DNA of 64,000 nucleotides from Candidatus Dormiibacterota bacterium (GCA_036564925.1 DATCOB010000025.1:6708-70707); one strand, 5' to 3'; counted from the stretch's first letter, positions 9,482 to 58,118 are shown. Made by a program: numbers and translations. Notes: generated by a model not told the origin, from the letters alone.

Positions 9482-9630
9482 GCCGGGCAAGTACAGAACC
9501 TGACACGGGCTGCTGCTCGCTCGTGTCGGCCCTCGAGCCGGCGCCTCGCGCGAAATTCCAACGCGCTCGGCCTGCCAAACTCGGGCCTACTCGCTCGCCA
9601 GCCCTACGCTAAAGCTCGCCTGCGGCGCGT

Positions 9631-9666
9631 GTCGGTCCGCGCCAAAACGCGGCCCGACCTTTTTTA
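9631..9666 (+). terminator. rho-independent terminator after erpA
   Basis: GTCGGTCCGCG-CCAAAA-CGCGGCCCGAC stem (one mismatch) followed by TTTTTT. Confidence 0.45.
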
Positions 9667-9800
9667 GCGGAACCGCCTGCGCGTGCTGAGCGCGGCCCTC
9701 GAACGTGAGTCCCATCCGGGGTCATTTTCTACTCTAGCTCGTGCATTGACGGACTTTCGGACCATTGATACGCTGATGCTCCGAAATCGTAAAGGTCAAC

Positions 9801-10775: not shown

Positions 10776-11378
10776 TCACTCGGTCGGGGCGATGAGAAAG
10801 ATCCAGATGTCCCAGGCCACGTGGCTGATGATCAGCGGGGCCATCCGTTGCTCGGCGGCGTAGACGAGGCCCCAAAAGACCCCCGCGGTCGCGGCCGCCC
10901 CGGTCAGGGTGAGGTTTTCTGAGACGAGGTGGATGCCACCGTAGATGGAGGACGCCACCAGCGCGGCGCCCACCCGCCCGAAACGGGGCTGCAGGCCGCG
11001 TTGCACCAACCCGCGCCAGAAGAGTTCCTCGCCCGGGCCAATGGCCAGGGCCAGCGCGGTCGCGATGGCCGCCTTCGGCGCCTGGGCGCGCAGCTCATAA
11101 ATCTGGCCGATCTCACGCTCGCCCGCCGGCATGATTCGCCGGGCCAGCCGATCGCCGACCTGAAACACGACATACAGGGCTCCGGCCGAGCCAAGCCCGG
11201 AGGCCAGATCACGCCAGCGTGGTCGCTCCCGCCGCAACGCCCGGTCGGTCAACAGCGCGAAGAGGCCGAGGCTGCCTACCCCGACCGTCATCCGCGGCCA
11301 GAACTGCGTCTTTGGGCCCCGAAAGGCGGCCGTCCACACGATGCCGGCCAGCCCGAGCCCCACCAGTAGCCGCCTCAT
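10776..11378 (-). CDS. CPBP-family intramembrane metalloprotease (CAAX protease-like)
   Basis: EELFWRG (EExxxR), FGGIHL (FxxxH), HVAWD motifs; ATGA overlap with upstream LLM-UbiA gene. Confidence 0.8.
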   Translation of the reverse strand: MRRLLVGLGLAGIVWTAAFRGPKTQFWPRMTVGVGSLGLFALLTDRALRRERPRWRDLASGLGSAGALYVVFQVGDRLARRIMPAGEREIGQIYELRAQAPKAAIATALALAIGPGEELFWRGLVQRGLQPRFGRVGAALVASSIYGGIHLVSENLTLTGAAATAGVFWGLVYAAEQRMAPLIISHVAWDIWIFLIAPTE

Positions 11379-13348
11379 TGCAGCATGGGCCCTGCGACCA
11401 GGCCGACCAGCAGCAGGGCGCCGAAGGCGGTGTGCAGCCGGGCCGTCATCAGGTCGATCATGGCGATCGCACGGAGACTGCCGCCGGCACCAAGCTCGGC
11501 GGCACGGAGGATCCAGGCCATCAACGGCAGGCTGAAGAGCGTGAGCAACGCAAGCCGCGGCAGCGTGCCGACCATCACCCCCACGCCGACGGCAACGTAG
11601 GCCCCGAGGACGAGCATCACGTAGATCCAGTGGGCCGCGTCCCGACCCACCTGCGCGGACAGGGTAGTGAATCCATGGCGGGTGTCCTCAGCGACGTCGC
11701 GCCACTCGTTGCCGTGGAGAATCGCCGTAACGAGCAGTCCCACCGGAAGCGACACGACCAGCAGACGTGCATCGAAGAGCCCGGTCACCGCGAAGTAGGC
11801 ACCCAGCACGATCAGCGGACCCATCAGTACGAAGACCAGGGGCAAGCCGAGGGCGCGGTACTTGTACTGGAATGGTGGGGCCGTGTAGAAATAGCCACCG
11901 ACGAACCCGATGATCCCCAGGACGAGGATCGGCCAGCCTCGGTTGACCAGCAGGTAAAGCCCGAGCATCGCCGCGATGAGAAAACCGGCCCACGCCGTGA
12001 TGAAGGCGCCGCGCTCGGTGATCCGGCCCTTCAAGATAGCCATGGACATGCGGGGTGACGTGATCGAGTCGATCCCATGCCGGACGTCGTAGATCTCGTT
12101 GATCACGTTGGTACCGATGTGGAGCCCCAGCGCACCGAACAACGCAGCCAGGAAGAGCAGCCAGTGCATCCGCCCCTGCCGTAGCGCGATCGCGCCGCCC
12201 ACCGCGACGGGGAGGAGGGAGGCGGTGAAGCTGAACGGCCGAACGAGTTCCCAGGCGCCCGCGGCGCGGCGGCCGAATCGAGCGACCGGCCCCAGCCGAT
12301 CGAGGGCGCCCGCCGCGGCAGCTGCCGGGACGACGCCGCCGGAGGCGCCCCGGGCGCCGTACTCGACGGCGGCCGCCAGCACCGCGGTCACCTGCGCCTC
12401 CTCCTGCAGGATCGGCTGCAACAACGGCACGGTCATCCCCGCCTCGTGGTAGGCGGCGGCACGCGCGGCCACGTCGGAGACAGTGCCACAGAGGATAAAA
12501 GCGTCCAGCAGCTCGTCCGGGATCAATGCCCCGGCCTTGTGGTAATCCTCGGCCCGCCACGCTGCCGCGATCTCGTTGCGCAGGGCGGGATCGAAGCCGA
12601 CGCGCTTCAGCGATACGTCGCTCAGCACGGAGATCATGTAGATGACGAACGGCTCGCGCTTGGCCCGGTTCAGCGCGTCGCGCCGGCTGCTGTCGATCAG
12701 GGCGAGCAGGTAGCCCCGGAAATCGATGTCGTCGGGCGAGCGACCGTGGCTCGCGGCGGTCTCCAGGATCCGCGCCCGCATCTTCTGGAAGGCGGGCAGC
12801 GACTCGGCGGGTCGGGCCAGGTAGCCGTCGGCCTTTTGGCCGCATAGATCGAGGAACGGCGTGCGGTAGGCGGCGATGTAGATCGGGATTCGATGGGGCG
12901 GCTGAAACATTGGTTGCAGGGGGGGGACCCTGTCGTTGAGCACCAGGCGCTCGCCGCGCCAGAGGGCGCGGACCTGGTCGATCGCGTCCGAGACGCGGGC
13001 GACCGTGTCGTCGTATGGGATCGCCATCTGGGAGAGGCGAAGCGGGAGGCCGCTGCCGACGGCGAGGGTGCAGCGCCGCGGCGCGAGGTCGTCCAGCGCG
13101 GACATGGTCATGGCCAGCACGACCGGATGCCGCGTGTAGGGATTCAGCGCCCCGGCTGCGAGGCCGACCCGGTTGGTCTCGAGCCCCATGGCCGAGAGGT
13201 AGGTGATGGGATCCCGCTCGAAATAGCTGTCATGGACCCAGACCGAATCGAGTCCGAGCTCCTCGGCGCGGCGGGCCCATCGCGCGGCCTCGCGGACGTC
13301 CCCCCGAGCCGCGAGCCCCAACCCGACTCGGAACGCGAGCTCTGCCAC
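11375..13348 (-). CDS. fusion protein: N-terminal LLM-class (luciferase-like) flavin/F420-dependent oxidoreductase + C-terminal UbiA/MenA-family prenyltransferase
   Basis: Single 657-aa ORF. aa 1-~340 LLM fold (FRVGLGLAARG...LDSVWVHDSYFERDPITYLSAM...); aa ~370-657 polytopic UbiA-family with Asp-rich NVINEIYDVRHGID motif and MenA-like TM pattern. Confidence 0.75.
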   Translation of the reverse strand: MAELAFRVGLGLAARGDVREAARWARRAEELGLDSVWVHDSYFERDPITYLSAMGLETNRVGLAAGALNPYTRHPVVLAMTMSALDDLAPRRCTLAVGSGLPLRLSQMAIPYDDTVARVSDAIDQVRALWRGERLVLNDRVPPLQPMFQPPHRIPIYIAAYRTPFLDLCGQKADGYLARPAESLPAFQKMRARILETAASHGRSPDDIDFRGYLLALIDSSRRDALNRAKREPFVIYMISVLSDVSLKRVGFDPALRNEIAAAWRAEDYHKAGALIPDELLDAFILCGTVSDVAARAAAYHEAGMTVPLLQPILQEEAQVTAVLAAAVEYGARGASGGVVPAAAAAGALDRLGPVARFGRRAAGAWELVRPFSFTASLLPVAVGGAIALRQGRMHWLLFLAALFGALGLHIGTNVINEIYDVRHGIDSITSPRMSMAILKGRITERGAFITAWAGFLIAAMLGLYLLVNRGWPILVLGIIGFVGGYFYTAPPFQYKYRALGLPLVFVLMGPLIVLGAYFAVTGLFDARLLVVSLPVGLLVTAILHGNEWRDVAEDTRHGFTTLSAQVGRDAAHWIYVMLVLGAYVAVGVGVMVGTLPRLALLTLFSLPLMAWILRAAELGAGGSLRAIAMIDLMTARLHTAFGALLLVGLVAGPMLQ

Positions 13349-18199: not shown

Positions 18200-19348
18200 G
18201 TGCCTCGGTCCCACCTCTTCGGTCCGGAACACGACGAGTTCCGGGGTACCGTCCGGCGTATCGTTGAGAAAGAGATTCGGCCGCACGTCGAGGCCTGGGA
18301 AGAGGCGCAGCAATTCCCTCGCGATCTCTTCGCCAGATTTGGCGCGCTCGACCTTCTCGGTCTGAAGTACCCCGAGCCGTATGGCGGAACCGACGCCGGC
18401 GTCCTCTACGAAGCGGTGCTCTTCGAGGAGCTGGCCCGGTGTGGGTCGGCCGGTGTGGCGGCCGGCATCGGCGCGCATGTGGCGATCGCCACGCCTCCCC
18501 TGTTCCAGTTCGGGACCGAGGAGCAGCGGCGCCGATGGCTGGCGCCGGCCATCAAGGGCGAGAAGATCGTGGCGCTTGGCGTGACCGAGCCCTCCGGCGG
18601 TTCGGACATCGCGCATGTGGAGATGACGGCCCGGCGGGACGGCGACGCCTACGTCGTCAACGGCAGCAAGATGTTCATCACCAACGGGGTGCAGGCCGAC
18701 GTGGTGGTGCTGCTGGCTCGCACGATGCCCGAAGGTGGGCATCATGGGCTGTCCATGCTCGTGGCCGAGCGCGGCACTCCCGGCTTTTCCGTGGGGCGCA
18801 AGTTGAACAAGCTGGGCTGGCGCGCGTCGGACACCGCCGAGCTGGTCTTCCAGGACTGCCGGATCCCGGTGGACAACCGCCTTGGCGAGGAGAACCGCGG
18901 GTTCTACCTGGCGGTCGCCAACTTCGAGTGGGAGCGGTTGTGGATCGCCCTCGGCGCCGTCGAGGCGGCCCAGCGCAGCATGGAGCTGGCCATCGATTAT
19001 GCGGGCAACCGCGTGCAGTTCGGCAAGACGCTCAGCTCGATGCCGATCATCCGCCACAAGCTCGCCGATATGGCGCTGATGATCGAGCAAGCCCGGCAGC
19101 TGACCTACCACGCCGTGTGGTTGCACACCCAGAAGGTCCCCTGCGGGAAAGAGGTGGCGATGGCCAAGGTCGCGGCCACCGAGGCGGACGTCAAAGCCGC
19201 GGACCAGTCGCTCCAGATCCATGGCGGCTACGGCTACATGATGGAGTATCCGATCCAGCGCGCCTGGCGCGATGCCCGGCTGGGCCCCATCGGAGCCGGG
19301 ACCAACGAAATCATGCGCGAGATCATCGCCAAAGAAATGGACCTCTAA
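18200..19348 (+). CDS. acyl-CoA dehydrogenase
   Basis: ACAD N/M/C domains (GVTEPSGGSDIAHVEMTA, YVVNGSKMFITNG, QIHGGYGYMMEYPIQRAWRDARL); GTG start 2 nt after PaaI stop. Confidence 0.85.
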   Translation: MPRSHLFGPEHDEFRGTVRRIVEKEIRPHVEAWEEAQQFPRDLFARFGALDLLGLKYPEPYGGTDAGVLYEAVLFEELARCGSAGVAAGIGAHVAIATPPLFQFGTEEQRRRWLAPAIKGEKIVALGVTEPSGGSDIAHVEMTARRDGDAYVVNGSKMFITNGVQADVVVLLARTMPEGGHHGLSMLVAERGTPGFSVGRKLNKLGWRASDTAELVFQDCRIPVDNRLGEENRGFYLAVANFEWERLWIALGAVEAAQRSMELAIDYAGNRVQFGKTLSSMPIIRHKLADMALMIEQARQLTYHAVWLHTQKVPCGKEVAMAKVAATEADVKAADQSLQIHGGYGYMMEYPIQRAWRDARLGPIGAGTNEIMREIIAKEMDL

Positions 19349-19373
19349 AACGGTCGCCGTCCAGCAGGAGATC

Positions 19374-19784
19374 GTGATCGCGCGCAGCGCCGAGGACGTC
19401 TTTGCGGAGCTCATTGATTTCGGCCCCGGGTCCTGCTGGTACACGGCGGTCACGCGGGAGGAGCACACGCCACCTGGACTCATCATCGCGGGGACCCAGA
19501 TCACCCAGTTCCGTGACGAGCGCGGCCGGGAGGCGATGACGCGGTATCTGGTCCGGGAGCTCGCGCCGGGCCGCCTGCTGACCCTGGAGTCAGTCGCGGC
19601 GAGCCCCGAGTCGTCGATTCATTACGTGCTCTCCGAGGTGCCCGAGGGGGTTCGGCTCATGTGCTCCATCGCCGTCCAGACCGGCGGACTCCTCAAGCTG
19701 GTGGAGTCACGGCTGCGCCGCGACCTCGATGGCAAGCTGGCGCAGACACTGGAAACGTTTCGCTCTGCCGTCGAGCACCCGTAG
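19374..19784 (+). CDS. SRPBCC (START/polyketide-cyclase-like) family protein
   Basis: SRPBCC-like N-terminus [20 protein letters not shown]; start uncertain (GTG 19374 or upstream ATG overlapping ACAD). Confidence 0.55.
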
Positions 19785-19827: not shown

Positions 19828-21915
19828 ATGCCCTTCGAAGCCACGCTTCCATTCAGTGCCCTGGTCGGGCAGGATCCGATGAAGCGAGCCCTACTCCTCA
19901 ACGCCGTCGACCCCGCCATTGGTGGGGTCCTGATCCGGGGCGACCGCGGCACGGCCAAATCGTCGGCGGTCCGTGGGCTGGCTCGTCTCCTTCCCGAGTA
20001 CGACGCGGTCGAGGGCTGCCCCTACCGCTGCGATCCGGCCTTGCCATCCCGGTACTGTGATAGTTGTCGGGAGCGCGCCAAGGCCGGTGCGCTGCCGGTG
20101 ACCCGACATTCCATGCGCATCGTCGAACTCCCGATCAACGCCTCGGAAGACCGGCTGGTGGGCTCCATCGACATCGAGGCGGCGGTGCGCTCCGGTACCC
20201 GTCGTTTCCAGCCGGGCGTGCTGGCCGAAGCGAATCGCAACATCCTGTACGTCGACGAGGTGAACCTGCTGGATGATCACCTGGTCGACGTTTTGCTCGA
20301 CGCGGCGGCCATGGGGGTCAATGTGGTCGAACGGGAGGGGATGTCGGTCATCCATCCAGCTCATTTCATCCTGGTCGGCACCATGAATCCGGAAGAAGGC
20401 GAGCTGCGTCCCCAACTCCTGGATCGCTTCGGGCTCTGCGTCGACGTGGAGACCCTGACCGACATCGACCAGCGTCTCCAGGTGATGGAACTGGAGCGCG
20501 ACTTCCTGATCGACGCCGGCCAGGTCGTGCGAACGGCGTCGTCGAATGAGGCCCGGCTTCGCGAGGCGATCCAGACGGCGCGAGCCCGGCTGCCGCAGGT
20601 CGGCCTTGCGGAAGCGATCCGCGCCCTGATTGCCCGGTTGTGCCTCGAAGACGCGGTGGCCGGACACCGGGCGGACCTGGTGGTGGCCAGGACAGCGCGC
20701 GCCATCTGCGCCCTGCGTGGGGGCGAGACGGTAGAGCTGCCGGACGTCCTTGAAGCCCTCGAATTGGGCCTTGCCCACCGCCGGCGTGAGCGGGCGGTCA
20801 ACGCCCCCGCCCAGGCGCAGAACCTGGCGGTGCGCGCCGCCGAGCAACTGGCGCAGATCCAGTCGACCACACCCAGCGAGAAGGGTCAGGACGTGCTTGG
20901 AGAAGCCACGCAAAGCGAAGGCGCCTCGGGCGGCGAGGCGACGGAAGGCTGGACCACCTCGCAAACGCGCGAGTCGCAGGCGACCGACGTGGCGGATGCG
21001 GAACCGGAAACCGTGATCCAGCTTCCTACCTTCAACGTCAGGAAGCTGGACCTTCCTCGAGAGCGCCAGGCACGGCGGGCTGCCGGGAAGAGAACGGCGA
21101 CCAAAAGTGAGACCAAGCGCGGCCGCTACGTCCGCAGCGCCCAGGCGGAGAAGGTGACGGATCTCGCCTTCGATGCGACGGTCCGTGCTGCGGCGCCGTA
21201 CCAACTGGGACGACGCAAGGCCGCGGTTACCGGCGGTCCGCACCTCCAGCTCGAGCGGCATGATCTCCGGCAGAAAGTCCGCGAGCGGAAGACCGGCAAC
21301 CTGATCGTCTTCGTGGTCGATGCCAGTGCCTCGATGGACGCCGAGCAGCGCATGCTGGCGACCAAGGGCGCCATCCTGTCGCTCCTGCGCCATGCGTATG
21401 TACGTCGCGACAAGGTCGCGCTGGTCGCTTTCAGTGGCCGCAGCGCCCGCGTGGTCCTGCGGCCAACGTCGAGCGTCGACCTGGCGGAACGCCGCCTCGA
21501 GCGGCTCAGCATCGGGGGGACGACGCCGCTGACGCACGGGCTGGTGACCGCCCTCAAGCTGGTCAAGACCGAACGGCTCCGCGATCCGCGCGTGTATCCG
21601 CTGGTCGTCTTGATCAGCGACGGCCGGGGGAACATCAGCCTGTTTGGCGAGGAGCCGTTGTTGGAAGCGCAGCGTGCCGCCGCCCAGGTCAAGCAGGAGG
21701 GCATCCGCGCGATCGTGATCGACTCGACCCGCGATTTCGGCAGCCAGCCCGGTCACCCGCGCAGCCGGGTGATGAGCCTGTACGGCGCCTATGCCTTCAA
21801 TGTGTGTGCCGATCTCGCGGAACGCCTCGGCGGCCGCTACTACGGCCTCTTCGACCTGTCGCAGACGGCCATCGTCGATACCGTCCAGCGTGAGATGCTT
21901 AGAACGGGTGCTTAG
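19828..21915 (+). CDS. magnesium-chelatase subunit D-like protein (degenerate AAA+ domain + acidic/Pro linker + C-terminal vWA)
   Basis: ChlI-like N-terminus (PFSALVGQD...[15 protein letters not shown], Walker A Gly to Ala), Cys-rich insert CPYRCDP...CDSCRER, C-terminal vWA with [14 protein letters not shown]; start at MPFEATL. Confidence 0.8.
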
Positions 21916-22105
21916 CAGAACAGCGAGGCCGCAGGCCGGACGCCTCAAACGCTCGCATCGCACTAAAGCGCGGCTCGCGTGGGCCGGCGGGCCCGGCTTT
22001 CGCGCGGATAGCGCCGGCGCCCCATGCGGCCTGTACGCGCAGGGCGAGGGCATTGGAATTTTGCCCGAGCCGCGCATGGGCCGCTGGACGGCGCACCGGC
22101 GCGAG

Positions 22106-22140
22106 AAAGTCTCTGTGCTCGAAGGGCAATAGAGGTAGCC
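22106..22140 (+). repeat. copy A of a ~35-nt intergenic motif AAGTCTCTGTG-N3-GAAG-N5-TAGAGGTAGCC
   Basis: AAAGTCTCTGTGCTCGAAGGGCAATAGAGGTAGCC immediately 5' of chlI-like TTG start; related to 37129..37167 and 58043..58078. Confidence 0.55.
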
Positions 22141-23172
22141 TTGGAGCGATTTACGTATCCGTTCAGCGCGATAGTCGGGCAGGACAAGATGAAGCTCGCG
22201 CTCGTCTTGAACGCGATCCACCCGGCGATCGGTGGCGTGCTGATCCGCGGTGAGAAGGGGACCGGGAAGTCCACCGCGGTCCGGGCGCTGGCCCGGCTCC
22301 TTCCCGAGCAGAACGTCGTGGCCGATTGCGTCTATCGGTGCGACCCGAATGCGCCCGAGGCGCTCTGCTCCGACTGCCGGGACCGGATCGCACGAGGCGA
22401 GACCCTGCCGAGGGCGCGCCGCCGAATGCGGGTCGTCGAACTGCCCATCAACGCGTCCGAGGATCGGGTTGTCGGGGCGATCGACATCGAGGCCGCCATC
22501 AAGAGTGGCGAGCGTCGCTTCGAGCCGGGGGTGCTGGCCGAGGCGAACCGCAATATCCTCTACGTCGACGAGGTGAACCTCCTCGACGATCACCTCGTGG
22601 ACGTGCTGCTGGACGCCGCGGCGATGGGCGTGAACGTGGTCGAACGCGAGGGGATCTCCATCTGGCACCCGGCGCGATTCATTCTGGTCGGCACCATGAA
22701 CCCCGAGGAGGGCGACCTGCGCCCACAGTTGCTGGACCGGTTTGGTCTCGCGGTCGACGTCGAAGGGATCAAGGACATCGGCCAGCGCGTGCAGATCGTG
22801 GAACGCCGCGAAGAATGGGAGTCTGACCCGGCTGGGTTCAGCCAGCGCTTCGCGGACGAGGATGCGCAGATCGGCCAGCGTATCGCGGAGGGGATCGTGC
22901 GCTTCCCGAAGGTCACCGTGCCGGTGGCGATCCTTCGGGGGCTGGCGGAGCTCAACGTCAGCCTCCAGGTGGATGGGCACCGGGCCGACCTCGTGGGCCG
23001 CAAGGCGGCCCAAGGCCTCGCCGCGTACCGTGGCGTTGGCGAGGTGGGCGTGAACGAGGTTAACGAGGTCGCCGACATGGTGCTGGCCCATCGAGTGAAG
23101 GCCGGGGGACGGCGCGAGCTTGGCTCCATCGGTCAGAGCATCTCGGGGGCATCGCGAGCGTCCAGAAGCTAG
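22141..23172 (+). CDS. magnesium-chelatase subunit I-like AAA+ ATPase
   Basis: TTG start with GAGG SD; [10 protein letters not shown], intact Walker [10 protein letters not shown], Walker [13 protein letters not shown], Cys-rich insert CVYRCDP...CSDCRDR; 344 aa. Confidence 0.8.
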
Positions 23173-23199: not shown

Positions 23200-24456
23200 T
23201 TGGCTCGGCTTGCGCGGGAACACCGTCTCATTTTTCAATACTTGACGCGGTCGATCGCAGGCGATGACCGGACACTGCTGACGCGACTGAACGCGATCAT
23301 CGACGAGCTGCCGGCCAGCCTCCTCCGAGTCAAGGATGCCGAGCTGGGCGAGCACCTGATCCAGATCCATGAGGCGGTCGACCGGCTGGAGGCGGTCTTT
23401 GGCGGCGGTTTGCGCCGCTTTGACCGGTCCGGGGACTGCAAGGCCGACGGGGCACTGTCGTCGGTGGCCTGGCTGCGCTGGCGATGCAAGCTCTCCGGTG
23501 GTGCGGCGGCCGAACGGGTGAACATGGCCCGCCAGCTCGAGCAACTGCCCGAAACCAGGAAGGCCTTCGCCGGCGGCGAGGTCGGGTACCAGCATGTCGC
23601 GCGGCTGGCGCGGACGGCCGAGAACGTCGGCGTGGCCGCGGTTCGCCAGCAGGAGGGGAATCTGCTGCAGGCCGCCCGCACCATGGATGCCAGCCAGTTT
23701 GCCGGGGTAGCGCGGCGCTTCGAGTACCAGCTCGATCAGGCGGCGGCGCTGACGGAGGCGAACCGCGCCCATACGCGACGCTACCTGCACCTGAGTGAGC
23801 CGACCAACGGGCTCGTCCATCTCGAGGGGCTGCTCGATGCCGAGGGAGGCGCCACGTTGAAGACCGCCCTGAATGCCCTGCTGCCGCCGCCGAAGCAGGA
23901 CGACGACCGCACCGCGGGGCAGCGACGCGCCGACGCCCTGGTCGACCTGTGCCGGCAGCGGCTGGATGGCCGCCACGCGGGCCAGGTGGGCGGGCAGCGG
24001 CCGCACCTCGTCATCACGGCGAGTGCCGAGGCCCTGGCCGGCCTCCCCGGCGCCCCGCCGGCGGAGCTCGCCGGGGTGGGCGCGATCCCCCTCGAGACGG
24101 CGCAGCGCCACGCCTGCGACGCGTCGGTAAGCCTGATTCTCGCCCAGGGCGAGCTGGACCGCGAGCGAGCGGGCCACGCCAGCCAGAAGATCCCGCCGGC
24201 GACGCGCCGGGCGCTGGTCGCCCGCGACCGTGGCTGCGTCGTCAATGGCTGTCAGCGGCCGCCGGCCTGGTGCGATGGACATCACGTGGTCTGGTGGACG
24301 CGGGGTGGCCGGACGGAGCTGTCCAACCTGGCGCTGGTCTGCGGGCGCCATCACCGCATGATCCACGAAGAAGGCTGGAGCCTGAGCCGGAACGTGGGTC
24401 AGTGGGTCACCACGCCACCGGCCAGCAGGGTCGCGGCGCATGCCCGGTCCGCCTGA
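23200..24456 (+). CDS. DUF222 + HNH endonuclease domain protein (actinobacterial '13E12-like' family)
   Basis: C-terminal HNH motif CVVNGCQRP..CDGHHVVWW..GG.T...NLALVCGRHHRMIH; long alpha-helical DUF222-like N-terminus; 418 aa. Confidence 0.8.
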   Translation: MARLAREHRLIFQYLTRSIAGDDRTLLTRLNAIIDELPASLLRVKDAELGEHLIQIHEAVDRLEAVFGGGLRRFDRSGDCKADGALSSVAWLRWRCKLSGGAAAERVNMARQLEQLPETRKAFAGGEVGYQHVARLARTAENVGVAAVRQQEGNLLQAARTMDASQFAGVARRFEYQLDQAAALTEANRAHTRRYLHLSEPTNGLVHLEGLLDAEGGATLKTALNALLPPPKQDDDRTAGQRRADALVDLCRQRLDGRHAGQVGGQRPHLVITASAEALAGLPGAPPAELAGVGAIPLETAQRHACDASVSLILAQGELDRERAGHASQKIPPATRRALVARDRGCVVNGCQRPPAWCDGHHVVWWTRGGRTELSNLALVCGRHHRMIHEEGWSLSRNVGQWVTTPPASRVAAHARSA

Positions 24457-33811: not shown

Positions 33812-35188
33812 CTACGGCGTGCTGGCCGGCGCCGGTGACGGATGCGGCTCCTGGATGTTTTGCTGTCCCTGGATCTGCATCTGCCCCGCGATCAGGTCGG
33901 GCGCGCGGCCGTTCTCGCGGATGTAGGCCATGGTCACGATCATCGCCATGGTCAGCACGGTCATGACCATCAACAGGCGCTGCTCGCCGCGCCGGGCGCT
34001 CCCCCATACGACGCCGGGCAAGCCACGCAGGTACCAGACGACCGCCGCGATGGCGATCAACGTGTAGGTCATCAAGGCGAGGACCTTCCAGGGGATCATG
34101 GCTCCCAGCGGATTGATCAAGCCGCCCTGCCAGAAGGGACGGTCGAGCCCAGCCGCCTGCACCTGGTCCAGGGTGAAGGCGAGATGGTAGGGCATCGCCG
34201 CGAGCAGGGTGGTGAGGACCATGCCCGCCGCCATCAGCTTCAGCAGACCTGCGCCGCGGGCCTCGTTCGTCCGTAGCCGCCGGGCGAAGTAGAAGGTCGC
34301 CGTGAGGAACATGATGCCGAGCAGGGTCATCTGCCACAGGAAAACGGTGCTGAGGCTTCCCCGCATCATCTTGTACCAGCTGCCGTAGGTGTGGAGCTGG
34401 ATCTCCTTGGCGTATGAGTAGCCGATGATGGGCTGGAGCAGAGTCATCGCCACGCCCCAGATCAGTCCAAAGCTGCCGGCCCAATCGTAGAAGGCTTTGT
34501 CCTCGGCGGTCTTCGCCCGGAGGAACTTGATGGCGCAGAACCCGCCGAAGGCGAAGCCGATATAGGCGAGGTTGCCGACCGTCCGGTGAAGGGTCAGCGG
34601 ATACGACGTCGGGTTGAGCACCAGGCGGATGGGATTGGTCGGATTGGTCGGGGTCAACATGTAGCTGGCCACGATGTCGATCATGTAGACCTGGATGAAG
34701 GAGGCGATCGCGAGCAGGCCGCCCAGCGCCATGTGCACACCTTTGAACGACCGCAACGGATCCCAGGTGTAGTACCAGAGATAGGCGAGAACCACCTGCA
34801 GGACGAATGACCAGGCCTCGATGAACAGGGGCCACCAGGCAATCGTCACCATCGTCGTCCAGAAATGGCCCCAGAGTCCGACCAGCAAAACCGTGATCAG
34901 CAGGATGGCGATAAAGGAGCTGAAGCTGAAGTAAACCGTGATGAACCGGCCCAGGCCATGGGCCAGGCGATCGTAACGCGGACGTTGGCGCATGTAGCCG
35001 AGCCACTCGATCGCCGGGCCGAGCTCGGCGGCTCCACTGATCAGACCAGCGATCAGGATATGGATCGAAAAGAGGCCGCCGATCGCCGCCCGCGCCGCCA
35101 CGCTGTTGCTGCCCTGGGGCGCGGTCGCCGGAAGCTGGGTCGCGAGAAGGTGGAACCAGGGTGCGATGACCGCGATCAACCCGCTCAC
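33812..35188 (-). CDS. polytopic membrane protein of unknown function, paralogous to 37152..38408 (last gene of Rieske/cyt b operon)
   Basis: GTG start overlapping cyt b stop (GTGA); >10 TM; shares N-terminal signature SIHILIAGL...LGPAIEWLGYMR with the 418-aa protein (LIHIIFGSF...LGPTFEWIGVVR); longer 755-aa ORF rejected. Confidence 0.6.
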   Translation of the reverse strand: MSGLIAVIAPWFHLLATQLPATAPQGSNSVAARAAIGGLFSIHILIAGLISGAAELGPAIEWLGYMRQRPRYDRLAHGLGRFITVYFSFSSFIAILLITVLLVGLWGHFWTTMVTIAWWPLFIEAWSFVLQVVLAYLWYYTWDPLRSFKGVHMALGGLLAIASFIQVYMIDIVASYMLTPTNPTNPIRLVLNPTSYPLTLHRTVGNLAYIGFAFGGFCAIKFLRAKTAEDKAFYDWAGSFGLIWGVAMTLLQPIIGYSYAKEIQLHTYGSWYKMMRGSLSTVFLWQMTLLGIMFLTATFYFARRLRTNEARGAGLLKLMAAGMVLTTLLAAMPYHLAFTLDQVQAAGLDRPFWQGGLINPLGAMIPWKVLALMTYTLIAIAAVVWYLRGLPGVVWGSARRGEQRLLMVMTVLTMAMIVTMAYIRENGRAPDLIAGQMQIQGQQNIQEPHPSPAPASTP

Positions 35189-36351
35189 AGGTTGAACAAC
35201 CGCCCTGACCCGAGCAGGGTGAGGATCACCATAAACAGCACCGCGAACGCGCCCGGCACCATGACGGCCGGTCGCTCGAACGGGTTGCGTTCCGGTCCCC
35301 GGTCGATGAACGGCAGCGCGAGAAGCAGCAGGACGCCGCCGGCCGGCAGAACCAGGACCAGTGGGATCAACTGCTTGGGCACGACCACCAGAAGCTGGTC
35401 CAGCGGGAGGTAGAACCACTGCGGGACGGGCGTATAGCTCGTGGTCGCCGGGTCCGCGGTCGCCTCCAGGGGTGCGCCGATCGTGACCGCCAGGATGAAC
35501 ACCAACAAGACCAGGGCGGCGGACACCACGCCATCCTTGAAGGTCTGGTGGGGGTAGAAGTCCTCGGTCTCGAGTGGTGCGGCCCACAGCTCGTCGGATG
35601 GGGTGGCTGGATACGGTGGCTCGATGCGCCGCTGCTGCGGAGCCGGCGGGACCTCGACGCCCTCGCGCGTCCGGTAGGCGCCGCGGTAGTTGACGTACGA
35701 TCCGAATTCCCCGTGCTTGCGGAGCAGCGCCAGGTGCGCGCCGATCAACGGGAAAAGAATGGCCGGCAGCAACCAGATATGAATGCCGAAGGTTCGGACG
35801 AGCGTGATGGGGCCGACAACATCGCCCCCCCGCCAGAGGGCGCGAATGAAGGAGCCGATCACCGGCGTATACGCGGGAATATTGGTCACGACGACGGCCG
35901 TCCAGTAGGCCGCCTGATCCCAGGGAAGGAATGCTCCCGTGATGGCCATCCCCAGCACGAGCACGAGCAACCCGACCCCGGTCACCCAGTTGAGCTCGCG
36001 TGGGCGCTTGTACGAGCCCGAAAAAAACGTTCGGACCATGTGCAGGCCGATCATGAATAGGAGGATGTACGCCGACCACAGGTGAATGCCGCGCACGATC
36101 GAGCCGAACGCGTCGTGCTCCTTGATGTAGTCCAGGCTCTCCCAGGCCTCCTTGACCGACGGGACGTACAGGAGCGTGAGGAAGATGCCCGTGATCAGTT
36201 GCAGAATGATCAGAACAAGGGTCGCGCTTCCAAGCGTGTAGAACCAGGCCCCTTTAACGGGCACCGCCTCGTAGAGCCCCTTCCGCAGCAGGCTCCGGAT
36301 CGCCGACCGCTCGTCGAGCCAGTTGTACGCCGAGCCGAGCCAGCGCCGCAT
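35185..36351 (-). CDS. cytochrome b (b6-like N-terminal + subunit-IV-like C-terminal, fused)
   Basis: Heme-ligand His pairs in helices B and D (GIHLWSAYILLFMIGLHMVRTF; FGIHIWLLPAILFPLIGAHLALLRKH), PWDQ motif, C-terminal PQWF (PEWY-type) segment; ATG 5 nt after Rieske stop. Confidence 0.9.
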   Translation of the reverse strand: MRRWLGSAYNWLDERSAIRSLLRKGLYEAVPVKGAWFYTLGSATLVLIILQLITGIFLTLLYVPSVKEAWESLDYIKEHDAFGSIVRGIHLWSAYILLFMIGLHMVRTFFSGSYKRPRELNWVTGVGLLVLVLGMAITGAFLPWDQAAYWTAVVVTNIPAYTPVIGSFIRALWRGGDVVGPITLVRTFGIHIWLLPAILFPLIGAHLALLRKHGEFGSYVNYRGAYRTREGVEVPPAPQQRRIEPPYPATPSDELWAAPLETEDFYPHQTFKDGVVSAALVLLVFILAVTIGAPLEATADPATTSYTPVPQWFYLPLDQLLVVVPKQLIPLVLVLPAGGVLLLLALPFIDRGPERNPFERPAVMVPGAFAVLFMVILTLLGSGRLFNL

Positions 36352-36355
36352 GGCC

Positions 36356-36847
36356 TCAGATGTCCTCGGTGAATCGGTTTTCGATGTACAGCGTCGTGCC
36401 GTCGATCCGGTGCACGAACTCAGGCAGTGGTTTAGGCGGCGGACCTCCCACGTTGTGACCGCTGATGTCGTAGAGGCCGCCATGGCAGGGACAGAGGAAC
36501 TGGCCGAGCGTCTTTTCCCAGCGCACCGGACACTGCATGTGCGAGCAGACGTTGGAGAGCACCTTCGTCTGGCCGTTCACCCTGACCACGTACACCGCCT
36601 GCTTGACCTCGGGCACGTCCCACGCATTCTGGGGAAAAGCCACTTCGAATTTGGTTGGTTCGCGATCCGGCACGCCGCTGATGTCACCGACCATTCGCTC
36701 CACGTACTGCTGGCGGCGAAACAACGGTGACAGTAGGAAGCCGATGATCGGAATTCCCAGGGCGAGCCCGACGATGGCGCCGGAGAGCTGGGTGCCGAGG
36801 ATGCCGAACTGGCGACGGCTCAGCCGCCGGGGATCAGGAAGCGCCAT
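36356..36847 (-). CDS. Rieske [2Fe-2S] iron-sulfur protein
   Basis: Tat signal SRRQFGILG; Rieske boxes CSHMQC ... CPCHGG; 163 aa. Confidence 0.9.
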   Translation of the reverse strand: MALPDPRRLSRRQFGILGTQLSGAIVGLALGIPIIGFLLSPLFRRQQYVERMVGDISGVPDREPTKFEVAFPQNAWDVPEVKQAVYVVRVNGQTKVLSNVCSHMQCPVRWEKTLGQFLCPCHGGLYDISGHNVGGPPPKPLPEFVHRIDGTTLYIENRFTEDI

Positions 36848-37070
36848 AGCGGATGAATCCGTAGAGCACCCCGGCCGTGCCGAGGACGATGAACAGCAGG
36901 GTGACCGTGATCGCGCCGCCCACCAGCCAGAAGGTGAGCACCGACTGATCGTGGCCGCGCTTGAACCAGCGACGAAGCCCGGCGACGACGATCCCGATCA
37001 GGAGCAGCGTCAGCCCCACCATGAAGCCGCTGATCAGCGCCAAATAAAAAAATGTTTGCAGACTACCCAT
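36834..37070 (-). CDS. small two-TM membrane protein (hypothetical, operon with Rieske)
   Basis: 78 aa, two hydrophobic helices, overlaps Rieske start by 14 nt. Confidence 0.45.
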   Translation of the reverse strand: MGSLQTFFYLALISGFMVGLTLLLIGIVVAGLRRWFKRGHDQSVLTFWLVGGAITVTLLFIVLGTAGVLYGFIRYGAS

Positions 37071-37128
37071 TCGGGGTTCCCTTGAAAGGGAAGTTAGCGA
37101 GCCCGCAGGGCGAGCCGCGCTTTCGCGC

Positions 37129-37167
37129 GTGTAAGTCTCTGTGGAAGCAGGTCACGGGTAGTACCCC
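37129..37167 (+). repeat. copy B of the AAGTCTCTGTG...GAAG...GGTAG..CC motif
   Basis: GTGTAAGTCTCTGTGGAAGCAGGTCACGGGTAGTACCCC; straddles stop codon of the 418-aa membrane-protein gene. Confidence 0.55.
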
Positions 37168-38408
37168 TTGCTGGGTGACTGGAAGATGCCGTAGCTGTCG
37201 CCCTCTTTGAGCTGCCCGTAGATCGTGTAGTCGCTGCGGGCCGTCGTCCGGATCACGCCCATCAAGAGGAAGAGAAGCATGGCGCTCATCCCGGTCACCG
37301 CCAGGGTCACCTGGCTGCTGCGTCGAAGATCCTGTGTCACCACGCGCACCCGCGGCCGCGAGGCGAGCCAGTGCACGAGGCTGAGGAGCACCGCCACCGT
37401 CAGGGCGATGTACCGCAGCCAGAAAAGATGCTTCGGATACAGGGCGGCGGGGGTCATGGTGATCAGCGAGGCCACGATGACGATCACGGTGAGCGGGAGC
37501 CCGGGCGGGCTTGGACGCGACTGCCAGAAATAGAGGTTGGTGCCGATGAGGAGGATCGCGAGGAACGTCGCCTGGATCAGCCAGAGCCAGGCGAATGGCC
37601 CCTGCATCGAGTACTGGAAGGCGCCGGGCGATGCCTGCTTGACGCTCTCGACGAAGACTGCCCCCAGCACGATCTGGGGGATCAGGGTGAGGAATCCGAC
37701 CACCAGGCTGGTGCGGGCGGCCCAGTGGTGATAGAGGCGGTCGGCCGGCAACCGGCTGGCGGCCGCGTAGATCGCCGCGACCGCGGCGATGAAGAACGAT
37801 GCCCAGGAGAGGTTGCCGATGAAGCGATGGCCGAGTTCCGGCCAGTAGGAGGGGTTGAAGAAGGCACCCGATCCGCGGCCGGCCCCCGGGGTGAGCAAGA
37901 AGCTATCGAGGGCCACGATGATGAAAAGGAAGACGTGCTCGGTCGCCGCGGTGAAGTAGCCGATCCCGATGTGCAATCCCTTGCGTGTTGCGAACCGGTC
38001 CCAGCGCAGGTTGTAGGTCAAAAGGCCGATCAGGGTCAGGAACCAGATGCTGAACGCGATCACGGCCGGCCAGAAAAAGGTGGTGATCAGGATTACAAAG
38101 AACCTCGGATAAAGCCCGGTGACCACGATGACCGCGAAACCGCCGAGCGTCGCGCCCAGGCTGAAGATCTTGACGTTGACGTTGCCGAGCGCCCGGGCAT
38201 AGCGCTCGAACCGCGGGTCCTTGCGGACGACGCCGATCCACTCGAAAGTTGGGCCCAGCACGAGCGAGCCCATCGTGAAGGAGCCGAAGATGATGTGGAT
38301 CAGAAAGAAGATGCCAACGGTCCATCGGTTGGTGATGAAGGGGATCTGGACGCTCGGCTGATCGATCTTGTATGACTCGGCGAGCCATGCCAGCCCGGTC
38401 AGGACCAT
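37152..38408 (-). CDS. polytopic membrane protein of unknown function (paralog of 33812..35188)
   Basis: 418 aa, ~10-12 TM, aromatic-rich; start 2 nt after ABC-2 permease stop. Confidence 0.6.
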   Translation of the reverse strand: MVLTGLAWLAESYKIDQPSVQIPFITNRWTVGIFFLIHIIFGSFTMGSLVLGPTFEWIGVVRKDPRFERYARALGNVNVKIFSLGATLGGFAVIVVTGLYPRFFVILITTFFWPAVIAFSIWFLTLIGLLTYNLRWDRFATRKGLHIGIGYFTAATEHVFLFIIVALDSFLLTPGAGRGSGAFFNPSYWPELGHRFIGNLSWASFFIAAVAAIYAAASRLPADRLYHHWAARTSLVVGFLTLIPQIVLGAVFVESVKQASPGAFQYSMQGPFAWLWLIQATFLAILLIGTNLYFWQSRPSPPGLPLTVIVIVASLITMTPAALYPKHLFWLRYIALTVAVLLSLVHWLASRPRVRVVTQDLRRSSQVTLAVTGMSAMLLFLLMGVIRTTARSDYTIYGQLKEGDSYGIFQSPSKGYYP

Positions 38409-39121: not shown

Positions 39122-40074
39122 TCGTGGGCCGCGGGAAGCGCGATGCCGGTCAGCTTCAAGAACAGGTCACCCAGGTTCGGCCGTCGGACACGCATGGTGT
39201 TGACGAGATCGGCGGTTCCGTTGAGCACGGCGAGGACGTCGGCGGGGTTCGCCCCCTTGGCCAGGACGATGTGCACCGTATCCCCTTCCACGTTGGCGGC
39301 TTCCACCGACGCGAGCCCGCGCAGCTTATCGAGGGGGACCGGCGAGCTCACCTGGAGCTGCACCTCCTTGGACCCCGCCAGCTCGCTCAGCAATTCTGGG
39401 ACCCTGCCCTCGCGGATCACGCGGCCGTGGTGCAGGAAGAGGACCCGGTCGCAGAGCCGCTCGGCCAGGTGCACGTCGTTGGTGGCGAGCAGGATCGCCA
39501 CGCCGGTAAGGCTCAGGAGCTGCAGCCGCTCGATGAGTTCGAGCTCGGCCCGGTAATCGAGCGCCAGGGTCGGCTCGTCGAGCAGCAGGATCTCCGGGCG
39601 GTGAACGAGTGCCTCGATCAAGTTCAGCCTCCGCTTCATCCCCAGCGAGTACTCGGCGACGAGCTGATCGCGGGCATCCCAGAGGCCGGACCAGTGGAGC
39701 AGCTCGTCCAGGCGTGCCCGGGCGAGCTCCTGCGACAGGCCGAATTGGCGGGCGAAGAACCAGGCGTTCTGATAGCCGGACATCTGATCGAAGTGGGCCG
39801 CCTGATCGAGGACGATCCCCAGGCGGCGGCGGACTGATGGGTCGCGCGGGTTTTTATTGCCGAACCAGGTGATGGTGCCGGCGGTCGGCGTTGAGGCGGT
39901 CGCCAGCATGCGCAGCAGGGTCGTTTTCCCCGAGCCGTTGGGACCCATCAAGCCGACCACCTCGCCGGCGTCAAGGGTGATCGCCACGTCGAAGACACCC
40001 TTGCCGCCGCGGTAGCGGCGGCTCAGGTCGCTCGCGCGCAGGAGGCTATCCCTTGAAGCCGTATCGTCCTTCAT
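39118..40074 (-). CDS. ABC transporter ATP-binding protein
   Basis: Walker A GLMGPNGSGKTT, signature SLGMKRRL, Walker B LLLDEPT. Confidence 0.9.
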   Translation of the reverse strand: MKDDTASRDSLLRASDLSRRYRGGKGVFDVAITLDAGEVVGLMGPNGSGKTTLLRMLATASTPTAGTITWFGNKNPRDPSVRRRLGIVLDQAAHFDQMSGYQNAWFFARQFGLSQELARARLDELLHWSGLWDARDQLVAEYSLGMKRRLNLIEALVHRPEILLLDEPTLALDYRAELELIERLQLLSLTGVAILLATNDVHLAERLCDRVLFLHHGRVIREGRVPELLSELAGSKEVQLQVSSPVPLDKLRGLASVEAANVEGDTVHIVLAKGANPADVLAVLNGTADLVNTMRVRRPNLGDLFLKLTGIALPAAHE

Positions 40075-57975: not shown

Positions 57976-58042
57976 TCCTCTTCCTCTAAGAAAAGTCGGG
58001 CCGCGCCCGTGGGCCGCGGACCGACACGCGCCGCATGCACCC

Positions 58043-58078
58043 GTGTTAAGTCTCTGTGGCAGAAGGCCTTAGTAGGCC
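58043..58078 (+). repeat. copy C of the AAGTCTCTGTG...GAAG...TAGTAGGCC motif
   Basis: GTGTTAAGTCTCTGTGGCAGAAGGCCTTAGTAGGCC in the convergent spacer between the HD-GYP regulator and pilA. Confidence 0.55.
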
Positions 58079-58118
58079 AATGCGGAAGGGCTGGCTCATA
58101 CCAACTGCCTAGAAACGG

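What the first reader, a model, noticed from the sequence alone, without database searches (positions are those of the whole stretch)
22106..22140. Recurring ~35-nt intergenic motif AAGTCTCTGTG-N3-GAAG-N4-6-(TAG/GG)TAG..CC in three copies, same orientation
Copies at 22106-22140 (AAAGTCTCTGTGCTCGAAGGGCAATAGAGGTAGCC), 37129-37167 (GTGTAAGTCTCTGTGGAAGCAGGTCACGGGTAGTACCCC) and 58043-58078 (GTGTTAAGTCTCTGTGGCAGAAGGCCTTAGTAGGCC) share an invariant AAGTCTCTGTG core, a GAAG box and a TAG..GG/GTAG..CC tail. Copies A and B additionally share GC-rich upstream boxes (CGCAGGGCGAG and GCTTTCGCGCG), in different order. Copy A ends exactly at the TTG start of the chlI-like gene. Copy B straddles the stop of a membrane-protein gene inside the Rieske operon. 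Copy C lies in a 3' convergent spacer. In B and C the motif is followed by an ATG/TTG and a 9-10 codon ORF containing G[DK]W. The varied contexts argue against a simple promoter. A small repeated regulatory or RNA element, or a REP/MITE-like genomic repeat, is more likely.
Basis: seen in the sequence. Interest (0 to 1): 0.5.

Follow-up and report, generated by a model that had tools for sequence, protein, structure and literature searches.

The report
Species-specific hairpin repeat inserted between genes
The recurring 11-base motif is the best-conserved end of a small, non-coding, hairpin-rich repeat that has been inserted into gene spacers of one uncultured Dormibacterota species, which is an ordinary kind of bacterial "junk/mobile" repeat (REP/MITE-like) but a family I found no description of.

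Summary
The 11-mer AAGTCTCTGTG is real. It occurs three times exactly, all on the + strand, against 0.01 expected, and all three lie in the ~4% of the window that is non-coding.

It is not a free-standing 35-nt motif. In copy B the "GGTAGTACCCC" tail is the conserved C-terminal coding sequence of a minus-strand gene, kept in relatives that lack the motif. The 9-10-codon ORFs have no support.

Orthologous loci in related Dormibacterota MAGs and metagenome contigs show extra DNA at all three sites:
- chlD-chlI: −4 to +2 nt in relatives, 225 nt here.
- cyt-bd-like gene to 78-aa gene: 17-22 nt in relatives, 81 nt here.
- Response regulator to pilin: 85 nt in relatives, 189 nt here.

A fourth, diverged, inverted member (D, 9488-9690) has the motif degraded to 7/11. 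Modules of the family sit at other loci in sister genomes. Members share hairpins in mosaic order. A and D share a long hairpin with a conserved TTGGAATTT loop and compensatory stem changes.

There is no Rfam match, no sigma-70-like promoter, and no transposase in the window.

Best reading: a non-autonomous REP/BIME/MITE-like dispersed repeat, with the 11-mer block as its conserved right terminus. Genome-wide copy number could not be measured. Modest interest; a new member of a known kind.

The parts
21916..22140 (+). Element A: the whole 225-nt chlD-chlI spacer, extra relative to all relatives examined.
   Evidence: In relatives, chlD and chlI overlap by 4 nt or are 2 nt apart: L264 (92% ChlI identity), L124 (87%), L125 (85%) and L126 (74%). 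A is homologous to D (blast E 5e-7; 1/200 shuffles).
22107..22117 (+). 11-mer AAGTCTCTGTG, copy A. It is followed by CTC-GAAG and preceded by the 3' arm of the long hairpin plus GAGA.
22011..22102 (+). Central long imperfect hairpin of A, with apical loop TTGGAATTT at 22053-22061.
   Evidence: MFE fold. The same hairpin and loop occur in D, with compensatory stem changes (coordinates).
22132..22143 (+). GAGG Shine-Dalgarno (22132-22135) and the TTG start of chlI (22141). The SD lies inside element A. Relatives start the orthologous codon with ATG.
   Evidence: Gene call; junction alignment.
37086..37149 (+). Element B: about 64 nt extra inside the 81-nt spacer 37071-37151, between the minus-strand cyt-bd-like gene and the 78-aa membrane-protein gene. 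Boundaries are good to about +/-3 nt.
   Evidence: The spacer is 17 nt in L262/L263 (93% identity), 18 nt in L128 (91%) and 22 nt in L130-133 (79%). An inner module matches an inverted segment of A (14/14 exact; 1/500 shuffles).
37133..37143 (+). 11-mer, copy B. It is antisense to the operon. Immediately upstream is the hairpin CGCGC-TTTC-GCGCG (37116-37129), which has a GAAA loop on the operon strand.
37077..37092 (-). Hairpin TTCCCTT-TC-AAGGGAA on the operon strand. The end of element B pairs with the AAGGGAA ribosome-binding region of the 78-aa gene; relatives keep the corresponding CAGGGAAGG.
   Evidence: Fold; alignment.
57976..58106 (+). Element C: the part of the 189-nt spacer between the response-regulator and pilin genes that is not alignable to the 86%-identity relatives (L271/L272). 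Those relatives keep only the pilin terminator and GCCT(G)AGAAA.
   Evidence: It is identical in three independent assemblies of the same species. Its left module is 83% identical to D over 58 nt (0/500 shuffles).
58048..58058 (+). 11-mer, copy C. It is preceded by the stem ACACG..CGTGT plus T and followed by GCA-GAAGG.
57995..58025 (-). Left-module hairpin GTCGG(GCCGCG..CGCGG)ACCGAC. On the minus strand it is followed by ACTTTTCTTA, which is terminator-like and lies downstream of the pilin gene's own terminator.
   Evidence: One compensatory pair is seen against L270.
9488..9690 (-). Element D: a diverged, inverted, long family member lying 7 nt after the stop of the IscA-like gene. Its right end is CCCGTGTCAGGTTCTGTAC (9491-9509); the 11-mer equivalent at 9492-9502 matches 7/11. 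The TTGGAATTT loop is at 9553-9561.

Best explanation
The 11-mer is the most conserved block, at the right terminus, of a family of small (about 64-225 nt), non-coding, GC-rich, hairpin-rich mosaic repeats. These repeats have been inserted into intergenic spacers of this Dormibacterota species. The closest analogues are REP/BIME elements and MITEs.

Shown:
- At three loci the window carries extra DNA that the nearest available relatives lack.
- The extra segments are related to each other and to a fourth, inverted copy (D).
- Pieces of the same family sit at different loci in sister genomes.
- The hairpins are kept through compensatory changes.

Inferred:
- The family is, or recently was, mobilised in trans by an enzyme encoded elsewhere in the genome.
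- The hairpin plus the terminal block (CG[TA]G[TA]-N0-1-AAGTCTCTGTG-N0-3-GAAG) is what that enzyme recognises. This would explain why the block stays identical while the rest of each copy has diverged or been deleted.
- A hairpin-dependent single-strand (HUH/Y1, RAYT- or IS200/IS605-type) mechanism is my preferred guess, because no convincing terminal inverted repeats or target duplications are seen. This step is untested.

Once inserted, the copies act only as passive spacers with side effects:
- A uncouples chlD from chlI and supplies the GAGG ribosome-binding site of chlI.
- B places three hairpins in a respiratory operon, one of them pairing with the next gene's ribosome-binding site.
- The left modules of C and D form terminator-like hairpins on the opposite strand.
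For: (1) Non-chance. There are 3 exact copies against 0.01 expected, all within the 4.2% of the window that is non-coding.

(2) Presence/absence at orthologous sites:
- chlD/chlI are overlapping or 2 nt apart in four relatives with 74-92% ChlI identity, against 225 nt here.
- The cyt-bd-like to 78-aa spacer is 17-22 nt in three relative lineages with 79-93% identity, against 81 nt here.
- The response-regulator to pilin spacer is 85 nt in L271/L272 (86% identity), against 189 nt here.
- The exact 11-mer is absent from all 20 relatives' loci held, about 278 kb.

(3) Family relations beyond the 11-mer:
- D~C, 83% over 58 nt (E 1e-8; 0/500 shuffles).
- D~A over 199 nt (E 5e-7; 1/200 shuffles).
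- B inner module ~ inverted A segment (14/14 exact; 1/500 shuffles).
- D~L270 spacer (E 2e-8).
- A 29-82 is 91% identical to L264 5276-5328, which is a different locus.
- A 153-187 matches L128 14537-14571 at 29/35 positions, again a different locus.

(4) Structure. A and D share a central hairpin with an invariant TTGGAATTT loop and 5 pairs changed on both sides. The left-module hairpin is kept in D, C and L270.

(5) No coding capacity, no transposase in the window, no Rfam family and no sigma-70-like promoter.

(6) Copy C is identical in three independent assemblies of the same species, so it is not an assembly artefact.
Against: - Only four members were seen. Genome-wide copy number is unknown, because the source genome is not in the searchable genome collection and the metagenome scan was swamped by an unrelated gut gene.
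- Copies are only 60-83% alike outside the terminal block, which is not what very recent transposition from one master copy would give.
- Direct-orientation homology of B and C to A upstream of the 11-mer is not significant on its own (about 40/500 shuffles reach the observed score).
- No clear TIRs or target-site duplications were found. The possible CAGAAC/GTCTCTG ends are 6-7 nt, imperfect, and seen only in A and D.
- No mobilising enzyme was identified.
- The sister species L270 has the left module of C but not the 11-mer, so the block is not universally conserved in the family.
- Folding energies of whole elements are not exceptional (z -0.75 to -2.3).
- The polarity of the C difference (gain here versus loss in L271) rests on one comparison.
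Confidence: 0.6

Rival explanations
1. A multi-copy structured small RNA, or a cis-acting RNA element. The hairpins and the single-stranded 11-mer would function in RNA, for example as a seed or protein-binding site, an mRNA stabiliser or an attenuator. The copies would then be gene paralogs rather than mobile DNA.
For: - Hairpins are kept with compensatory changes and there is a conserved apical loop.
- B has a GAAA tetraloop on the operon strand.
- The left modules of C and D are terminator-like.
- A and B lie inside operons and would be transcribed.
Against: - A is sense and B is antisense to the surrounding operon, while D is inverted, so one RNA strand cannot be the functional one in all copies.
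- No promoter-like sites are present and no Rfam match was found.
- Length ranges from 64 to 225 nt, with whole hairpins missing in the short copies.
- The element is absent from orthologous sites in relatives at 92-93% protein identity, and the 11-mer is not kept in L270.
Confidence: 0.15
2. Not mobile. The spacers grew locally, by template switching or hairpin-primed repair, and exchanged segments by gene conversion between GC-rich hairpins. The 11-mer would be a passenger of that exchange.
For: - The module order and orientation are mosaic.
- Similarity outside short blocks is low.
- In L264 the module is flanked by a 20-nt imperfect duplication of the neighbouring gene's end, which looks more like repair or recombination than classical transposition.
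Against: - Sequence has moved between at least seven unlinked loci in three genomes.
- An identical 11-mer is retained at one end of three otherwise diverged copies, which suggests a recognised terminus.
Confidence: 0.12
3. A protein-binding operator or an alternative-sigma promoter that coordinates chlI, the Rieske/cyt b operon and the pilin locus.
For: - There is an exact 11-mer in three intergenic regions on one strand.
- Copy A lies directly upstream of a gene start.
Against: - The distance and orientation to genes differ: upstream and sense in A, antisense at a gene's 3' end in B, and in a convergent 3' spacer in C.
- No -35/-10 arrangement was found.
- The motif is not conserved at these loci in any relative, whereas regulons are normally conserved at this phylogenetic distance.
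- The motif arrives as part of larger extra DNA segments.
Confidence: 0.06
4. Chance recurrence of an 11-mer in a 64-kb window.
For: In Markov-3 simulations, some low-GC 11-mer occurs three times in about 0.37 of windows.
Against: - All three copies lie in the 4.2% of the window that is non-coding.
- Their flanks are related: hairpin, GAAG and family modules.
- 0 of 100 shuffles reach 3 copies.
Confidence: 0.02

Closest known systems
REP / BIME elements of Enterobacteria and Pseudomonas (repetitive extragenic palindromes, mobilised by RAYT HUH transposases)
   Same: - Short GC-rich imperfect palindromes confined to extragenic DNA.
- Located between genes of an operon and in convergent 3' spacers.
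- Combined in mosaic order and both orientations, as in BIMEs.
- No coding capacity.
- Can act as terminators or mRNA-stabilising hairpins.
- Species-specific in sequence.
   Different: - No conserved GT[AG]G head next to each palindrome.
- Long forms of about 200 nt with a central 90-nt hairpin.
- The conserved block is a non-palindromic 11-mer.
- Copy number and an associated RAYT gene are unknown.
MITEs, e.g. Correia elements of Neisseria and ERIC/IRU
   Same: - Small and non-coding.
- Presence/absence polymorphism between close relatives.
- Short copies (B, C) lack the central hairpin of the long copies (A, D) but keep the terminal block.
- Inserted next to or between genes, with effects on their expression signals. 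A supplies an RBS.
   Different: - No convincing terminal inverted repeats (at best 6-7 nt, imperfect).
- No target-site duplication.
- No parent IS known.
PATEs / IS200-IS605-derived miniature elements
   Same: - Ends carry hairpins rather than TIRs.
- No target-site duplication.
- A conserved short sequence follows the last hairpin at one end.
   Different: - No conserved target tetra- or pentanucleotide could be shown from four copies.
- No TnpA/TnpB found.
- No match to Rfam families, including the IS605-associated RNA motifs that I recall being in Rfam.
BOX elements of Streptococcus pneumoniae, SNR repeats of Deinococcus, and MIRUs of Mycobacterium
   Same: - Modular, mosaic intergenic repeats.
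- MIRUs likewise sit between genes of operons.
   Different: - No tandem unit structure.
- No small ORFs overlapping the flanking stop and start codons, unlike MIRUs.
- Sequences are unrelated.

Membership tests
REP/BIME (RAYT-associated) | Short imperfect palindromes restricted to extragenic DNA | tested here: met
   All four members are intergenic. Hairpins were found.
REP/BIME (RAYT-associated) | Conserved 5' GT[AG]G tetranucleotide adjoining the palindrome | tested here: not met
No GT[AG]G head adjoins the hairpins.
REP/BIME (RAYT-associated) | Tens to hundreds of copies per genome | not testable with these tools
   Only 74 kb of the source genome is reachable. There are 4 members per 64 kb here. 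The genome scan did not contain the species and the metagenome scan was truncated.
REP/BIME (RAYT-associated) | A RAYT (IS200-like Y1 transposase) gene flanked by the repeats | not testable with these tools
   No transposase was found among the window proteins scanned with Pfam. The rest of the genome was not seen.
MITE | Small, non-coding, multi-copy, with presence/absence differences between related genomes | tested here: met
   Elements are 64-225 nt, absent at orthologous sites of relatives, and family modules occur at other loci in relatives.
MITE | Terminal inverted repeats | tested here: inconclusive
   Only a 6-7 nt imperfect match is seen: CAGAAC at the left end of A, against GTCTCTG at the right end of A (reverse complement CAGAGAC) and CAGAAC as the reverse complement of the right end of D. 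It is not seen in B or C.
MITE | Target-site duplication | tested here: inconclusive
   None is evident for A, B or C. L264's module is flanked by a 20-nt imperfect direct repeat, which is atypically long.
IS200/IS605-derived PATE | Subterminal hairpins, no TIR or TSD, insertion 3' of a fixed 4-5-nt target | tested here: inconclusive
   A hairpin ends 1-4 nt before the terminal block in A, B and C. Left flanks are CTTAG (A), CTTGA (B) and CCTCT (C), so four copies show no fixed target.
Known structured RNA family (Rfam 15) | Covariance-model match at or near the gathering score | tested here: not met
   No hit at gathering threshold in the window. Only far sub-threshold chance hits appear in permissive scans of D, A and C. 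B was not scanned separately.
Sigma-70-type promoter | -35 and -10 hexamers at 16-18 nt spacing | tested here: not met
   No promoter-like sites were found around any of the four copies.
Intrinsic terminator | GC-rich hairpin followed by a T-run | tested here: inconclusive
   This is met only by the left module of C on the minus strand and, by eye, by that of D on the + strand. It is not met by the 11-mer block or by A or B.
MIRU-like operon spacers | Tandem 40-100-bp units with small ORFs overlapping the flanking stop and start codons | tested here: not met
There is no tandem unit structure.

The most novel reading that the evidence does not exclude
The family is a previously undescribed type of hairpin-guided element in Dormibacterota. 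A hairpin plus the invariant non-palindromic block AAGTCTCTGTG-GAAG would be the cleavage or recognition site of a single-strand (HUH/Y1 or other) transposase or a domesticated derivative. The element would preferentially land at stop-codon/start-codon junctions of tightly coupled genes (A, B, D and the L264 copy all abut a stop codon) and bring its own ribosome-binding site, so rewiring translational coupling. Alternatively, the long form (A/D, with the conserved UUGGAAUUU loop) is a new multi-copy structured RNA.
Probability: 0.12. Interest if true: 0.5.

Novelty: new member of a known kind. Interest (0 to 1): 0.3.

Why it matters
Small interspersed repeats have not, to my knowledge or in the literature searches run here, been described for Dormibacterota, a phylum known only from metagenomes.

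If the family is abundant it would have three uses:
- It would be a handy strain and species marker.
- It would be a source of assembly breaks in MAGs.
- It would be a handle for finding the mobilising enzyme.

The local consequences are concrete and testable:
- A 225-nt insert has split a translationally coupled chlD-chlI pair and now provides the RBS of chlI, whose start codon here is TTG.
- A second insert sits inside the Rieske/cytochrome b operon and can pair with the next gene's ribosome-binding site.

In this window the four members make up roughly a quarter of all non-coding DNA. None of this changes current concepts. It is a new example of a familiar phenomenon.

Tried and rejected
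- **Genome-wide count, genomes.** The genome-contig scan with CTTCN{0,3}CACAGAGACTTN{0,1}WCWCG gave 8 single hits in unrelated phyla. It found none of the window's own copies, so the source species is not in that collection.
- **Genome-wide count, metagenomes.** Both one-shot scans are therefore spent without a census.
- **Extending the contig.** Looking up the first window protein found nothing on record. The last protein gave 3 kb of new sequence from the same species, with no further copy.
- **Promoter reading.** Rejected: no sigma-70-like sites. Manual checks for ECF-type -35/-10 spacing found nothing consistent.
- **Known RNA.** Rejected.
- **Small peptide ORFs after the motif.** Rejected for B, where the ORF is antisense to conserved codons. 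Unsupported for C.
- **"B is an internally deleted A in direct orientation."** This was attractive by eye, but about 40 of 500 shuffles reach the observed score (p about 0.08), so I keep it only as a possibility. The inverted match between B and A is significant.
- **Possible fifth copy at ~49575-49600 (CCGTGTTTGTCTGTGGCTGG).** Not recovered by the right-end HMM at E<10, so dropped.
- **Similarity to annotated plasmids and phages.** Nothing meaningful.
- **Literature search** for the 11-mer and for REP elements in Dormibacterota. Only eukaryotic primers, or nothing.

Full report
**Source and setting**

The window is part of contig DAIRGT010000011.1 of MAG GCA_036794385.1. Homologues of its proteins are named Candidatus Dormibacteraeota, Dormibacter or Chloroflexi MAGs. 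G+C is 66%. A curated gene map leaves only about 2,656 nt (4.2%) non-coding.

**Check of the observation**

The three sequences are exactly as quoted. AAGTCTCTGTG occurs three times exactly, all on the + strand, and there are no additional one-mismatch copies. Shuffles expect 0.01.

I tested how impressive this is after the fact. In Markov-3 simulations, some 11-mer with <=5 G+C recurs three times in about 0.37 of windows. The count alone is therefore weak evidence. What makes it real is that all three copies lie in the 4% of the window that is non-coding, and that their flanks are related, as described below.

- Copy A fills the end of the chlD-chlI spacer and abuts the TTG start of chlI (22141).
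- Copy B lies between a minus-strand cytochrome-bd-subunit-I-like gene (37152-38408) and a 78-aa membrane-protein gene. The Rieske, cytochrome b and a second bd-like gene follow.
- Copy C lies between a response-regulator/HD-GYP gene and a convergent pilin gene.

**Comparison with relatives**

Using homologues of ChlI, the bd-like protein and the response regulator, I fetched orthologous loci from related MAGs and metagenome contigs.

| Locus | Relatives (protein identity) | Spacer in relatives | Spacer in window |
|---|---|---|---|
| chlD-chlI | L124 (87%), L126 (74%) | 4-nt overlap | 225 nt |
| chlD-chlI | L264 (92%), L125 (85%) | 2 nt | 225 nt |
| bd-like to 78-aa gene | L262/L263 (93%) | 17 nt | 81 nt |
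| bd-like to 78-aa gene | L128 (91%) | 18 nt | 81 nt |
| bd-like to 78-aa gene | L130-133 (79%) | 22 nt | 81 nt |
| Response regulator to pilin | L271/L272 (86%) | 85 nt | 189 nt |

Further details from these alignments:
- At chlD-chlI, the orthologous start codon is ATG in relatives and TTG here.
- At the bd-like junction, alignment places about 64 extra nt (37086-37149) between CC and TCAAGGGAA.
- In the response-regulator/pilin spacer, L271/L272 retain the pilin terminator hairpin and the adjacent GCCT(G)AGAAA but nothing alignable to the rest.
- Copy C is identical in three independent assemblies of the same species, so it is not an assembly artefact.
- None of the 20 relatives' loci held (about 278 kb) contains the exact 11-mer.

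**A family, not three isolated motifs**

Searching the three extra segments against the window and all Dormibacterota loci gave further members:
- **D**, a fourth copy in the window at 9488-9690 on the minus strand, 7 nt after the stop of an IscA-like gene. It matches the left part of C at 83% over 58 nt (E 1e-8) and A over 199 nt at 62% (E 5e-7). Its right end, CCCGTGTCAGGTTCTGTAC, is a degraded version (7/11) of the 11-mer region of C (CCCGTGTTAAGTCTCTGTGG).
- **The spacer after the response-regulator gene in the sister species L270** (95% identity). It carries the same left module, with the hairpin kept, but continues like D rather than with the 11-mer.
- **An 85-nt segment in L264 at a different locus**, after the acyl-CoA dehydrogenase gene. 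It is 91% identical to A 29-82.
- **The 35-nt convergent spacer L128 14537-14571**, which matches A 153-187 at 29/35 positions. The "AAGTCTC" that follows it in L128 is coding sequence of the neighbouring gene and is coincidental.

Shuffle tests gave the following:

| Comparison | Shuffles reaching the observed score | Reading |
|---|---|---|
| C vs D | 0/500 | significant |
| A vs D | 1/200 | significant |
| B vs inverted A | 1/500 | significant |
| B or C vs A, direct orientation, upstream of the 11-mer | about 40/500 | not significant |

The four window copies therefore form a connected but mosaic family. The modules are:
- a left hairpin module, in C and D;
- an alternative hairpin module, in A-left and B;
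- a long central hairpin, in A and D;
- a right-terminal block, in A, B and C, degraded in D.

A and D share the central hairpin with an invariant apical TTGGAATTT and five pairs changed on both sides. The left-module hairpin is kept in D, C and L270, with one compensatory pair. The short copies B and C lack the central hairpin but keep the terminal block.

**What it is not**

- No Rfam family matches at gathering thresholds or in permissive scans of D, A and C.
- No sigma-70-like promoter is predicted at any copy.
- The distance from the 11-mer to any -10-like string varies.
- The element is sense to the operon in A, antisense in B, and inverted in D.
- Whole-element folding energies are unremarkable (z -0.75 to -2.3).
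- The window encodes no transposase.
- There is no meaningful similarity in annotated plasmids or phages, and nothing in the literature.

**Most likely mechanism**

The pattern has five features:
- lineage-specific extra DNA at intergenic sites;
- related pieces at unlinked loci in several genomes;
- no coding capacity;
- mosaic hairpin modules in both orientations;
- short copies that keep the terminal block.

This is the pattern of REP/BIME- or MITE-like non-autonomous repeats. I infer that the terminal block, consisting of a hairpin, 1-4 nt, AAGTCTCTGTG, 0-3 nt and GAAG, is the part under constraint because it is recognised by the mobilising enzyme. Because I see no convincing TIRs or target duplications, a hairpin-dependent single-strand mechanism (RAYT or IS200/IS605-like) is my preferred guess, but it is untested. 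A possible 6-7-nt imperfect inverted repeat (CAGAAC...GTCTCTG) at the ends of A and D is noted but is not significant on its own.

The side effects that can be read from the sequence are:
- A carries the GAGG ribosome-binding site 5 nt (22136-22140) upstream of chlI's TTG start and breaks the ancestral translational coupling.
- B adds three hairpins to the operon mRNA, the last of which pairs with the AAGGGAA ribosome-binding region of the 78-aa gene.
- The left modules of C and D are hairpin-plus-T-run structures on the opposite strand.

**Limits**

- The source species is not in the searchable genome collection.
- The single metagenome scan was truncated at 120 rows by an unrelated gut sequence.

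The copy number, the exact ends and the mobilising enzyme therefore remain unknown. The polarity of the difference at locus C rests on one outgroup.

**Verdict**

This is a real, non-chance feature. Its 35-nt description is partly wrong, and its REP/MITE-like interpretation is right. It is a new family of a well-known kind of element, of modest interest.

Noticed in passing
L264 5225-5347 (sister species; orthologous to window ~19330-19375): The 85-nt family module is flanked by a 20-nt imperfect direct repeat, CCAAGGAACTCGATCTATGA / CCAAGGAACTGGATCTGTAA. This duplicates the last six codons plus the stop of the acyl-CoA dehydrogenase gene. The two copies differ only at synonymous positions and in the stop codon. 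It looks more like site-specific integration or repair than classical transposition.
   Followed up: partly
window 23200-24456: A DUF222 + HNH endonuclease gene (a REP13E12-like family) sits between chlI and lepA. Relatives carry different genes at this spot: CN_hydrolase in L264, a 156-aa ORF in L124, patatin in L126, and nothing in L125. This is therefore a variable hotspot 1 kb from element A.
   Followed up: partly
window 22024-22140: An ATG at 22024 is in frame with chlI and open through element A. It could give a 39-aa N-terminal extension encoded by the insert. Gene callers and ortholog alignment favour the TTG at 22141.
   Followed up: no
window 33812-38408 (minus strand): The Rieske / cytochrome b pair is bracketed by two cytochrome-bd-subunit-I-like membrane proteins (418 and 458 aa) and a 78-aa membrane protein. 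This five-gene order is conserved in the relatives whose loci span it (L128, L130, L133, L262, L263), which is an unusual respiratory module.
   Followed up: no
window 40046-42568 and 19828-23172: There is an 840-aa protein with Usp and PCP_red (protochlorophyllide-reductase 57-kDa subunit-like) domains, and a ChlD/ChlI-type chelatase pair without a ChlH/CobN gene in the window. The lineage is not known to be phototrophic.
   Followed up: no
window 47890-49518: A subtilase (Peptidase_S8) gene lies between the sortase and response-regulator genes. It is absent from the syntenic region of L128. L271/L272 have two S8 genes there.
   Followed up: no
window 49575-49600: CCGTGTTTGTCTGTGGCTGG, just after a terminator hairpin, resembles the right-end block of copy C by eye. 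It was not recovered by the family HMM.
   Followed up: yes
window 11375-13348 (minus strand): A single 657-aa ORF fuses a luciferase-like monooxygenase domain to a UbiA prenyltransferase domain.
   Followed up: no
L145-L252 (many human-gut metagenome contigs): A widespread gut-bacterial coding sequence (..TTCGAGAAAGTCTCTGTGCGGAAGTTCCTG..) happens to match the search pattern and saturated the metagenome scan. It is unrelated to the finding.
   Followed up: yes
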